DNA from: Candidatus Woesearchaeota archaeon
GTDB taxonomy: Archaea > Nanobdellota > Nanobdellia > Woesearchaeales > UBA10216
Length of the DNA: 59,157 nt
Assembly (NCBI GenBank): GCA_016935265.1
Contig: JAFGRH010000043.1
Location: 1 to 59,157 of the forward strand
Direction: 5' to 3'
Shown piece after piece: positions 48,064 through 48,269 of this stretch. A program made the translations under genes and the position numbers. The notes beneath the pieces were generated by a model, which worked only from the letters and a program-made list of their open reading frames with translations, made no database searches and was not told the origin of the DNA. Position 1 is the first letter of the stretch, and every line of letters starts with the position of its first letter.

Positions 48064-48269
48064 GCCGCGGTCGCATAGCCTGGCCATTGCGGTGGATTGC
48101 TAGGAGCCCTGGTTCCTTAGAAACCTACAATGGCACACAGAAATTCACTGTCCGAAAGGGCACGGGAGTTCAAAAACTGCAAACTCAGTTTACACGTTAG
48201 GTCGGCATGAAGCCGACCAGTGCGCTTCGCGCATAACGGGATTGCAGCTTGAAAGTCTCCCCCGCGGCG
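48064..48269 (+). tRNA. tRNA-Ser (GCU) gene containing two introns.
   Basis: Introns are 48103-48142 (40 nt, canonical 37/38) and 48175-48255 (81 nt, T-loop 59/60).

The joined exons give an 85-nt product: GCCGCGGUCGCAUAGCCUGGCCAUUGCGGUGGAUUGCUAAUUCACUGUCCGAAAGGGCACGGGAGUUCAAAUCUCCCCCGCGGCG.

Its cloverleaf is complete:
- Perfect acceptor stem GCCGCGG/CCGCGGC.
- D loop AGCCUGGCCA.
- Anticodon stem GUGGA/UUCAC with loop UUGCUAA.
- Long variable arm GUCC-GAAA-GGGC (type II tRNA).
- T arm GGGAG-UUCAAAU-CUCCC.
- Discriminator G, followed by a U-rich tail. Confidence 0.85.

What the first reader, a model, noticed from the sequence alone, without database searches (positions are those of the whole stretch)
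48064..48269. tRNA-Ser(GCU) with a canonical intron plus an 81-nt structured T-loop intron
The exons assemble into an 85-nt type II tRNA with all stems perfect. It carries one 40-nt intron at 37/38 and one 81-nt intron at 59/60.

The T-loop intron has a perfect BHB core:
- The T stem acts as the exon helix.
- Central helix UUCA/UGAA.
- Bulges AA|A and AG|U.

It also contains two strong internal hairpins of its own: GGUCGGC-AUGAA-GCCGACC and UGCGC-UUC-GCGCA. That is more structure than splicing needs, so the excised intron could be a stable RNA.

The tRNA-iMet gene 2.1 kb away has an intron at the same 59/60 position with the same 3' junction context (AAG|UCU).
Basis: partly seen in the sequence, partly recalled or inferred. 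Interest (0 to 1): 0.7.

Follow-up and report, generated by a model that had tools for sequence, protein, structure and literature searches.

The report
Serine tRNA gene with two introns
This is a real serine tRNA gene of a Woesearchaeota-type (DPANN) archaeon, interrupted by two protein-spliced introns; one is a long hairpin-rich insert in the T-loop that relatives carry at the same site with a very different interior, so it is a known kind of feature in a poorly described lineage.

Summary
Removing 48103-48142 (40 nt) and 48175-48255 (81 nt) from 48064-48269 leaves an 85-nt class II tRNA-Ser(GCU). The T-loop intron sits in a textbook bulge-helix-bulge motif: T stem, UUCA/UGAA helix, bulges AA|A and AG|U.

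A metagenome search found 15 related tRNA-Ser(GCU) genes. All splice in silico to 85 nt. Eleven have an intron at exactly 59/60, 44-174 nt long. Both the cloverleaf and the splice motif with its closing helix show compensatory base changes. Intron-less orthologues score 52 bits on Rfam tRNA.

Nearby proteins place the contig in Woesearchaeota-like DPANN archaea, where disrupted tRNA genes are expected. Position 59/60 and canonical-plus-non-canonical intron combinations are already described.

The "stable RNA" idea stays untested. The intron interior folds better than shuffles (z = -4.25) and shares hairpin modules with some relatives. It has no C/D boxes and no Rfam match. It is replaced wholesale between near-identical loci, which argues against a conserved sequence-specific function.

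The more unusual item is the neighbouring initiator tRNA gene (45761-45969, minus strand). It has five introns, against a published maximum of three, and relatives carry 0, 3 or 4.

The parts
48064..48269 (+). tRNA-Ser(GCU) gene, 206 nt, three exons and two introns; discriminator G at 48269; no encoded CCA
   Evidence: In-silico spliced 85-mer is called tRNA-Ser(GCT) by ARAGORN. It is 78/85 identical to the intron-less orthologue L164, which scores 51.6 bits on Rfam RF00005. Cloverleaf covariation across 12 distinct sequences.
48064..48102 (+). Exon 1 (tRNA positions 1-37): acceptor 5' strand 48064-70, D arm 48073-90, anticodon stem 5' strand 48092-96, anticodon GCT 48099-48101
48103..48142 (+). 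Intron 1, 40 nt, at canonical position 37/38, with a relaxed splice motif. The 3' bulge AA|A lies next to the anticodon stem. The central helix UUG/CAG has a C35xA mismatch. The 5' site lies beside a local intron hairpin.
   Evidence: The 3' half (AGAAACCTACAATGGCACACAGAA) is conserved in L158, L161, L097 and L138.
48143..48174 (+). Exon 2 (positions 38-59): anticodon stem 3' strand 48144-48, long variable arm 48149-62, T stem 5' strand GGGAG 48164-68, T-loop UUCAAA 48169-74
48175..48255 (+). Intron 2, 81 nt, at non-canonical position 59/60 in the T-loop
   Evidence: BHB scan: H=4, exon helix 5 bp. Minimum-free-energy fold. Same site occupied in 11 of 15 related genes. BHB and closing helix covary.
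48169..48175 (+). 5' half of the BHB: central-helix strand TTCA (48169-72, T-loop 54-57) and 3-nt bulge A58 A59 | A (48173-75); cleavage after 48174
48250..48256 (+). 3' half of the BHB: central-helix strand TGAA (48250-53) and 3-nt bulge A G | U60 (48254-56); cleavage after 48255
48177..48182 (+). Closing helix P1, 5' strand CTGCAA. It pairs with TTGCAG at 48242-48247. An A-U pair (48176/48249) and a bulged C (48248) lie between P1 and the BHB.
   Evidence: All 9 P1 pairs show compensatory changes among relatives.
48242..48247 (+). Closing helix P1, 3' strand TTGCAG
48200..48218 (+). Intron hairpin 1: GGTCGGC-ATGAA-GCCGACC (7 bp, 5-nt loop)
   Evidence: Counterpart AGGTCCGGCATAAAGCCGA in the L142 intron, 18 of 19 alignment columns identical. 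No other copy in the window or in viral contigs.
48220..48234 (+). Intron hairpin 2: GTGCGC-TTC-GCGCAT (6 bp including one G-U, UUC loop). It carries the recurrent GCTTCGC motif.
   Evidence: CGCTTCGCGCA is shared with the L117/L127 introns. The motif occurs in 4 of 10 independent introns, p about 0.001.
48256..48269 (+). Exon 3 (positions 60-73): U60, T stem 3' strand CTCCC 48257-61, acceptor 3' strand 48262-68, discriminator G
   Evidence: A T-rich run (TTTCTT) follows directly, as in the relatives.
45761..45969 (-). Neighbouring initiator tRNA-Met(CAU) gene, 209 nt, with five introns: 15/16 (45928-45954), 29/30 (45888-45911), 37/38 (45861-45879), 45/46 (45821-45852), 59/60 (45775-45806)
   Evidence: The spliced 75-mer is called tRNA-Met(CAT), with A1-U72 and three G-C pairs in the anticodon stem. 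Its D arm is identical to the syntenic intron-less iMet of L081/L205 (64 bits on Rfam). Relatives with 3 and 4 introns use the same positions.

Best explanation
48064-48269 is a functional tRNA-Ser(GCU) gene of a Woesearchaeota-like DPANN archaeon. It is transcribed as a precursor of about 206 nt that carries two protein-spliced (bulge-helix-bulge) introns.

In the precursor the T stem GGGAG/CUCCC forms normally. T-loop bases U54-A57 pair with UGAA near the intron's 3' end. This gives a 4-bp helix flanked by two 3-nt bulges (A58 A59|A and A G|U60). The intron helix CUGCAA/UUGCAG continues the stack, and two hairpins pack the interior.

The archaeal splicing endonuclease cuts two bases into each bulge (after 48174 and after 48255). 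It likewise cuts the more relaxed motif around the 40-nt anticodon-loop intron. RtcB-type ligase joins the exons, and CCA is added afterwards.

The 59/60 intron is an old insertion inherited across this clade. Only its ends and its closing helix are under constraint; the interior turns over rapidly. The interior most likely has no sequence-specific job. Its hairpins most plausibly keep a long insert compactly folded, so that it does not interfere with the tRNA body or the splice motif.

Shown: gene structure, motif, conservation of site, covariation. Inferred: transcription, cleavage, ligation, fate of the intron.
For: The spliced product is a tRNA:
- ARAGORN calls tRNA-Ser(GCT), 85 nt.
- 15 related genes from metagenomes all splice to 85-nt tRNA-Ser(GCT).
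- Across 12 distinct spliced or native sequences, 100% of 300 cells are paired and 8 pairs show compensatory changes. Covariation score is 0.318 against 0.127 in shuffles (0 of 500) and at most 0.092 when slid.
- Intron-less orthologues L164 and L153 reach 52 bits on Rfam RF00005, threshold 29.

The splice motif is real:
- Strict geometry in the window.
- In 11 genes with the 59/60 intron, the central helix is 100% paired and 90.4% of all cells are paired, against 72.8% in shuffles.
- 11 of 18 pairs show compensatory changes, and every closing-helix pair varies on both sides. Score is 0.512 against 0.183 in shuffles (0 of 500) and at most 0.245 when slid.

Lineage: RNase HII at 44176-44790 is 68% identical to proteins named Candidatus Woesearchaeota, and gene order is shared.

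Literature:
- 59/60 is a listed non-canonical site, and canonical-plus-non-canonical combinations are known (PMC4090602).
- DPANN endonucleases with the L3 loop go with increased tRNA gene disruption (PMC5829648).

Transcription unit: relatives have a TTTATAAA box about 30 nt upstream and an oligo-T run after the discriminator; the window has TTTCTT after it.

Interior unconstrained: lengths of 44-174 nt. It is non-homologous between loci with identical exons and 85-96% identical flanks.
Against: - There are no expression or junction data.
- No endonuclease or ligase gene lies in the window, so the enzyme type is unknown.
- The window's own upstream region has only weak TATA-like strings.
- The 37/38 intron lacks a strict BHB: the central helix has 3 of 4 pairs and the RNAalifold consensus puts the 5' site in a helix. 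It therefore depends on a broad-specificity enzyme.
- 'Interior has no function' is an argument from turnover. Hairpin modules and the GCTTCGC motif are shared more than chance predicts, and one pair (L117/L127) keeps the intron at 97% identity while its flanks are 55-78% identical.
- The D arm and anticodon loop were fixed by my search pattern, so they add no independent covariation.
Confidence: 0.9

Rival explanations
1. The excised 59/60 intron is itself a functional stable, probably circular, small RNA, and the two hairpins are its working parts.
For: - Interior z = -4.25, and 6 of 8 homologous interiors have z below -2.
- Hairpin 1 recurs in L142 and hairpin 2 in L117/L127, despite different exons.
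- GCTTCGC occurs in 4 of 10 independent introns, p about 0.001.
- The L117/L127 intron is 97% identical where the flanks are 55-78% identical.
- All 59/60 introns here (44-174 nt) are far longer than the 12-25 nt median quoted for archaeal tRNA introns (PMC4090602).
- Stable circular tRNA-intron RNAs are described in animals (tricRNAs, PMC4536317).
Against: - No module is present in all introns, and no architecture is shared.
- The interior is non-homologous between near-identical loci.
- Four relatives lack the intron altogether.
- There are no C/D boxes and no Rfam hit even at E<=1.
- The shared modules may simply be inherited remnants.
Confidence: 0.12
2. The interior of the 59/60 intron is an actively exchanged or mobile cassette. 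It is replaced by recombination, gene conversion or intron transposition between genomes or genes, rather than slowly decaying in place.
For: - Divergence starts abruptly a few bases inside the intron and ends at TGGTGAAAG, in loci whose exons are identical and whose flanks are 85-96% identical (L100/L119/L142).
- Modules are distributed as a mosaic across lineages with different exons.
- In L117/L127 the intron is more conserved than the flanks.
- A LAGLIDADG-like ORF sits beside the five-intron iMet gene in the window.
Against: - No second copy of any module was found in 2.3 Mb of held sequence outside tRNA-Ser introns, other than single-mismatch matches to the shorter modules, nor in viral contigs.
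- L100 versus L142 can be explained by a few indels.
- Only three closely related loci were available.
- The Ser and iMet 59/60 introns are unrelated in sequence.
Confidence: 0.2
3. The locus is a decayed tRNA pseudogene, or a chance assembly of tRNA-like pieces, and is not spliced.
For: ARAGORN (with introns allowed) and Rfam find nothing in the unspliced DNA. I chose the splice sites so as to make a tRNA.
Against: - The exons give 100% paired stems with compensatory changes across relatives.
- The same exon boundaries recur in 11 independent genes.
- The BHB and closing helix covary.
- Intron-less orthologues are 78/85 identical.
- The neighbouring iMet shows the same logic, with an intron-less syntenic counterpart.
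Confidence: 0.02
4. The long intron hosts a box C/D (or other known) guide RNA, like the archaeal tRNA-Trp intron.
For: Its length (81 nt) is similar to tRNA-Trp introns, median 65 nt (PMC4090602).
Against: No RUGAUGA or UGAUG in any of the 21 introns examined. CUGA appears only where the BHB end creates it, in two relatives. There is no Rfam family match.
Confidence: 0.01

Closest known systems
Multiple-intron tRNA genes of Thermoproteales (for example Pyrobaculum islandicum tRNA-Pro(UGG), with introns at 25/26, 37/38 and 56/57)
   Same: A canonical intron is combined with non-canonical BHB introns in one gene. 59/60 is a listed insertion site. The motifs are relaxed as well as strict, and the gene depends on a broad-specificity splicing endonuclease (PMC4090602, PMC4033280).
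   Different: The lineage is different (DPANN/Woesearchaeota-like, not Crenarchaeota). The T-loop intron is much longer than the usual 12-25 nt. It is held at one site in one isoacceptor across a clade while its interior is hypervariable. The neighbouring iMet has five introns, against the reported maximum of three.
Disrupted tRNA genes of ARMAN/Micrarchaeum and other DPANN archaea, cut by epsilon2 or L3-loop alpha4 endonucleases
   Same: Same superphylum. Non-canonical introns are associated with endonuclease inserts, and published surveys note tRNAs that standard predictors miss (PMC3239211, PMC5829648).
   Different: The endonuclease of this organism was not seen, because it is not in the window. 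In the papers I read, I found no description of a clade-wide 59/60 intron in tRNA-Ser(GCU) or of 4-5-intron iMet genes.
Archaeal tRNA-Trp intron carrying a box C/D guide RNA
   Same: A long tRNA intron with internal structure beyond the splice motif.
   Different: It sits at 37/38, not 59/60, and has conserved C/D boxes and guide sequences. None are present here.
Metazoan tricRNAs
   Same: BHB-like excision followed by RtcB ligation could circularise the 81-nt intron. A stem-rich interior would favour stability.
   Different: Circularisation or accumulation is untested here, and the interior is not conserved.
Split and tri-split tRNA genes (Nanoarchaeum equitans, Caldivirga maquilingensis)
   Same: The same BHB logic joins tRNA pieces. 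The long closing helix of the 59/60 intron resembles the leader/trailer duplex of split genes.
   Different: Here all pieces are contiguous on one strand, apparently in one transcription unit.

Membership tests
Archaeal BHB (protein-spliced) tRNA intron, non-canonical position 59/60 | Removing the insert restores a sequence that passes tRNA detection | tested here: met
   ARAGORN calls tRNA-Ser(GCT), 85 nt. The intron-less orthologue, 78/85 identical, scores 51.6 bits on Rfam RF00005.
Archaeal BHB (protein-spliced) tRNA intron, non-canonical position 59/60 | Both splice sites lie in 3-nt bulges separated by a 4-bp helix and flanked by an exon helix and an intron helix (hBHBh') | tested here: met
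   H=4/4, exon helix 5 bp, bulges AA|A and AG|U. The intron helix is 1 bp, a 1-nt bulge, then 6 bp, slightly relaxed on the h' side.
Archaeal BHB (protein-spliced) tRNA intron, non-canonical position 59/60 | The motif is maintained in evolution by compensatory changes | tested here: met
   11 genes: 90.4% of cells paired, 11 of 18 pairs compensatory, 0 of 500 shuffles reach the covariation score.
Archaeal BHB (protein-spliced) tRNA intron, non-canonical position 59/60 | The host encodes a splicing endonuclease able to cut non-canonical or relaxed motifs, and an RtcB ligase | not testable with these tools
   Neither gene is in the 59-kb contig, and the rest of the genome is not available. The literature reports such enzymes in DPANN (PMC5829648).
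Archaeal BHB (protein-spliced) tRNA intron, non-canonical position 59/60 | Spliced junctions observed in RNA | not testable with these tools
   No transcriptome data.
Canonical 37/38 BHB intron | Strict hBHBh' motif in which anticodon-loop bases 32-35 pair with the intron | tested here: not met
   The position is 37/38, but the central helix has 3 of 4 pairs (C35xA) in the window and four relatives. The 5' site adjoins a local hairpin. It fits the relaxed (BHL/HBh') class instead.
Class II tRNA-Ser | Long variable arm, serine anticodon (GCU), G73 discriminator | tested here: met
   The 14-nt variable arm TGTCCGAAAGGGCA is paired and covaries. Anticodon GCT at 48099-101; discriminator G at 48269.
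Box C/D guide RNA nested in a tRNA intron | C box RUGAUGA and D box CUGA forming a K-turn | tested here: not met
   No C box in either intron or in any homologue. No Rfam hit.
Group I/II self-splicing intron or known Rfam RNA family | Match to a curated covariance model | tested here: not met
   No match at gathering score in the whole window. No relevant match at E<=1 in 40000-59157.
Archaeal initiator tRNA (neighbouring gene) | A1-U72 pair, three G-C pairs at the foot of the anticodon stem, CAU anticodon | tested here: met
   The spliced 75-mer shows all three features. The syntenic intron-less counterparts score 63-64 bits on RF00005.

The most novel reading that the evidence does not exclude
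In Woesearchaeota-like archaea the T-loop (59/60) site of tRNA-Ser(GCU) holds a long, modular, hairpin-built cassette. The cassette is swapped or rebuilt far faster than the surrounding genome while the splice motif is kept. Under this reading the turnover is not drift but reflects a function. Possible functions are a diversifying circular small RNA, or a decoy or barrier against elements or nucleases that target the tRNA 3' half. The same lineage would push protein-spliced tRNA introns to a new extreme: five in one initiator tRNA gene, and single introns up to 174 nt.
Probability: 0.12. Interest if true: 0.7.

Novelty: new member of a known kind. Interest (0 to 1): 0.4.

Why it matters
For genome annotation:
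- Both tRNA genes in this 59-kb contig are invisible to ARAGORN and Rfam.
- Recent surveys of this phylum still report "missing" tRNAs (PMC5829648; bioRxiv 10.64898/2026.05.13.725050).
- Loci like this one show that at least part of the gap may be multi-intron genes rather than loss.

For tRNA biology:
- The data give a natural series. One isoacceptor carries a 59/60 intron of 44-174 nt across a clade. One initiator tRNA carries 0, 3, 4 or 5 introns at fixed positions.
- This series could be used to study how BHB introns are gained, kept and rebuilt, and how far a DPANN splicing endonuclease tolerates relaxed motifs.

The tRNA-Ser gene itself is an ordinary example of the class.

Tried and rejected
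1. ARAGORN (default, -i, -i0,150) and Rfam (gathering, and E<=1 on 40-59 kb) on the raw window found no tRNA. The detectors are blind to these genes.
2. I spent the only genome-contig scan on the adjacent inositol-1-phosphate synthase. Its best relatives are Chloroflexota at 70-79% identity, so it was useless for synteny.
3. An exact-protein look-up of that gene found nothing on record.
4. A homology search with the 340-aa protein upstream found only itself.
5. The idea that the conserved 3' half of the 37/38 intron pairs with the D arm (CAAUGGC/GCCAUUG) failed. Duplex energies are no better than shuffled introns, p = 0.12-0.84 in the five 40-42-nt homologues. Rejected.
6. C/D box guide: no boxes. 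Rejected.
7. Repeated or mobile hairpin modules: no extra copies in the window or viral contigs. In 2.3 Mb of held loci only single-mismatch matches to the shorter modules turned up outside tRNA-Ser introns.
8. Viral attachment sites matching the uninterrupted tRNA-Ser 3' end: the two viral hits are unrelated phage tRNA-Thr genes. This gives no support for the integration-barrier idea, and it is not a strong test.
9. Splicing endonuclease or RtcB in the window: not found among 40 ORFs scanned.
10. The 72-aa ORF 47982-48200 overlapping the tRNA gene is treated as spurious.

Full report
**What is at the coordinates**

The stretch 48064-48269 (+) begins GCCGCGG and ends CCGCGGCG. Deleting 48103-48142 (40 nt) and 48175-48255 (81 nt) leaves 85 nt that ARAGORN calls tRNA-Ser(GCT). 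It has a 7-bp acceptor stem, a 3-bp D stem, a 5-bp anticodon stem with one G-U, a paired long variable arm and a perfect T stem.

On the unspliced DNA, ARAGORN (also with introns allowed) and Rfam report nothing. The gene is therefore invisible to routine annotation. A simple scan of the whole window for a 7-bp acceptor pair plus a T stem followed by TTCRA gave many AT-rich chance hits. Only two candidates were GC-rich: this locus and an AGCGGGG...CCCCGCT locus on the minus strand at 45761-45969.

**The T-loop intron**

A scan for the archaeal bulge-helix-bulge (BHB) geometry finds the 59/60 solution:
- Each bulge follows its strand of a 4-bp helix, with cleavage two bases into each 3-nt bulge.
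- All four central pairs form (UUCA of the T-loop with UGAA of the intron).
- The T stem serves as a 5-bp exon helix.

Beyond the 5' bulge there is one A-U pair, a bulged C, then CUGCAA/UUGCAG. Inside lie two hairpins, at 48200-48218 and 48220-48234. The interior without the closing helix folds at -22.9 kcal/mol, against -12.8 +/- 2.4 for shuffles (z = -4.25, 0 of 200). The run of A's does not allow the splice sites to slide, because the base before U60 is G.

**The anticodon-loop intron**

This intron is canonical in position only. Its 3' site lies in a proper AA|A bulge next to the anticodon stem. The central helix has three pairs plus a C35xA mismatch. The 5' site adjoins a local intron hairpin rather than a cross-strand helix. 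The same arrangement, including the mismatch, recurs in four relatives. RNAalifold on the five sequences supports the local hairpin with compensatory changes. This is a relaxed motif of the kind that needs a broad-specificity endonuclease (PMC4090602, PMC4033280).

**Whose genome**

- The upstream 340-aa protein has no relatives at all.
- The downstream inositol-1-phosphate synthase is 70-79% identical to Chloroflexota genes.
- RNase HII (44176-44790) is 68% identical to proteins labelled Candidatus Woesearchaeota. The BatA/VWA/MoxR/AdoHcy-hydrolase neighbourhood is syntenic with such genomes.

The contig is therefore from a Woesearchaeota-like DPANN archaeon. A published survey links DPANN endonucleases carrying the L3 loop to increased tRNA gene disruption. 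It also notes tRNA sets that standard tools cannot complete (PMC5829648). A 2026 preprint on 208 complete genomes of the phylum still reports missing tRNAs (10.64898/2026.05.13.725050).

**Relatives of the gene**

A metagenome pattern search on the D arm plus anticodon loop returned 120 loci. Most are intron-less marine archaeal tRNA-Ser genes. Fifteen share the GCCG[A/C/G]GG acceptor and near-identical exons with the window. After in-silico splicing all sixteen, the window included, are 85-nt tRNA-Ser(GCT).

Distribution of introns among the fifteen:
- Eleven carry an intron at exactly 59/60, with lengths of 44, 44, 48, 86, 88, 88, 94, 98, 104, 114 and 174 nt. Five of these also have a 37/38 intron.
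- Two have only a 37/38 intron.
- Two have none.

Several of these genes sit beside a transglutaminase-like gene 33-41% identical to one in the window. The set therefore spans deep divergence within one lineage.

Covariation in the exons: on the 12 distinct spliced sequences the cloverleaf is 100% paired and 8 pairs show compensatory changes. No shuffle reaches the covariation score. The D arm and anticodon loop were fixed by the search pattern and do not count.

Covariation in the splice motif: I built a composite alignment of the T stem, the BHB and the first 9 pairs of the closing helix.
- The central helix is 100% paired.
- Every closing-helix pair varies on both sides.
- 90.4% of cells pair, against 72.8% in shuffles.
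- The score is 0.512, against 0.183 in shuffles (0 of 500) and at most 0.245 when the partners are slid.

The two intron-less orthologues score 52 bits on Rfam tRNA, and L164 is 78/85 identical to the window's spliced product. I could not run a covariance model on the spliced sequence itself.

Relatives show a TTTATAAA box about 30 nt upstream and an oligo-T run right after the discriminator. The window has TTTCTT downstream and only weak TATA-like strings upstream.

**Is the interior of the 81-nt intron more than packing?**

Points in favour:
- Six of eight homologous interiors have z below -2.
- Window hairpin 1 has an 18-of-19-column counterpart in L142, and hairpin 2 (CGCTTCGCGCA) has one in L117/L127. 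Other modules link L158-L097, L097-L100 and L100-L142.
- The 7-mer GCTTCGC occurs in 4 of 10 independent interiors, which 2 of 2000 shuffles match.
- L117 and L127 keep the intron at 97% identity while their flanks are 55-78% identical.

Points against:
- No module is universal and there is no shared architecture.
- There are no C/D boxes and no Rfam family.
- L100, L142 and L119 have identical exons and 85-96% identical flanks. Their alignments break down a few bases into the intron and resume at TGGTGAAAG. L119's interior is at background similarity, 54-55%.

I conclude that the ends and the closing helix are constrained for splicing. The interior is a fast-changing, hairpin-prone filler with patchy inherited modules. 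A sequence-specific function is unlikely but not excluded, and active exchange of interiors is a live alternative. No extra copies of the window's two hairpins or of the longer modules were found in 2.3 Mb of held sequence or, for hairpin 1, in viral contigs. The shorter modules gave only single-mismatch matches.

**The shared junction with iMet**

Any intron at 59/60 must end with a tetramer that pairs with U54-A57, followed by two bulged bases before U60. This accounts for GAAAG|U in the Ser gene and GGAAG|U in the iMet gene. The interiors are unrelated.

**The initiator tRNA gene**

I parsed the minus-strand locus with the BHB scan and by hand. It needs five deletions to give a 75-nt tRNA-Met(CAT) with A1-U72 and three G-C pairs in the anticodon stem:
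- 15/16, 27 nt
- 29/30, 24 nt
- 37/38, 19 nt
- 45/46, 32 nt
- 59/60, 32 nt

Independent support comes from relatives, where the gene next to RNase HII is:
- an intron-less iMet whose D arm is identical to my spliced model (L081, L205; 63-64 bits on Rfam);
- a three-intron version using 29/30, 37/38 and 45/46 (L206, L207);
- a four-intron version adding 59/60 (L082-L084).

Intron sequences at 37/38 and 45/46 are recognisably homologous between these genes. Reviews give three as the maximum number of introns in an archaeal tRNA gene (PMC4033280, PMC4090602). My searches for reports of four or more in archaea found none, though the library is not exhaustive.

**Comparison with what is known, and verdict**

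Non-canonical BHB introns, the 59/60 site, canonical-plus-non-canonical combinations, intron lengths of 11-129 nt and disrupted tRNAs in DPANN are all described (PMC4090602, PMC4033280, PMC5829648, PMC3239211). The tRNA-Ser gene is therefore a new member of a known kind.

What goes beyond the literature I could read:
- the clade-wide retention of a long 59/60 intron in one isoacceptor, with hypervariable interiors;
- one relative's 174-nt intron, which exceeds the quoted length range;
- the 0/3/4/5-intron initiator tRNA series.

All mechanistic steps (transcription, cleavage, ligation, circularisation) are inferred from sequence and family knowledge. None is shown.

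Noticed in passing
window 45761-45969 (minus strand); L081 9846-9920, L205 1348-1422, L206/L207, L082 9755-9921: The initiator tRNA-Met gene has five BHB-type introns (15/16, 29/30, 37/38, 45/46, 59/60). Syntenic genes in relatives have 0, 3 or 4 introns at the same positions. Reviews give three as the maximum for an archaeal tRNA gene.
   Followed up: yes
L100 (174-nt intron), L119, L142; alignment: Three loci have identical tRNA-Ser exons and 85-96% identical flanks, but their 59/60 intron interiors are non-homologous or heavily rearranged. 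L100's 174-nt intron exceeds the 11-129 nt range quoted in a 2014 review.
   Followed up: partly
window about 45159-45728 (+), within ORF 44883-45728: A free-standing ORF has weak LAGLIDADG homing-endonuclease similarity (Pfam LAGLIDADG_3, 21.1 bits, just under the cut-off; weak hits to intein regions). It lies between RNase HII and the five-intron iMet gene. In relatives iMet lies directly beside RNase HII with no such ORF between them.
   Followed up: partly
window 48120-48142; L158, L161, L097, L138 (alignment A2): The 3' half of the 37/38 intron (AGAWACCTACAATGGCMCACAGAA) is conserved across five lineages, more so than the T-loop intron interior. Its complementarity to the D arm is not better than chance, so the reason for the conservation is unexplained.
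   Followed up: partly
window 48364-49440 (+): The myo-inositol-1-phosphate synthase directly downstream of the tRNA is 70-79% identical to Chloroflexota/Dehalococcoidia genes. This is far closer than other window proteins are to their archaeal relatives, which suggests horizontal transfer.
   Followed up: no
window 46878-47900 (-): A 340-aa ORF between the two tRNA genes has no homologue in 5.8 billion clustered proteins and no Pfam or NCBIfam match.
   Followed up: partly
whole window: No tRNA is predicted anywhere in 59 kb by ARAGORN or Rfam, although two tRNA genes are present. Standard pipelines would under-count tRNAs in this lineage.
   Followed up: yes
window 7391-7729 (+): A gene for the RNase P protein subunit Rpr2/Rpp21 is the only RNA-processing gene recognised on the contig. 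No splicing endonuclease or RtcB was found among the ORFs scanned.
   Followed up: no
window 47982-48200 (+): A 72-aa ATG ORF overlaps the 5' two-thirds of the tRNA-Ser gene. It is almost certainly spurious but could be called as a gene by automatic annotation.
   Followed up: no
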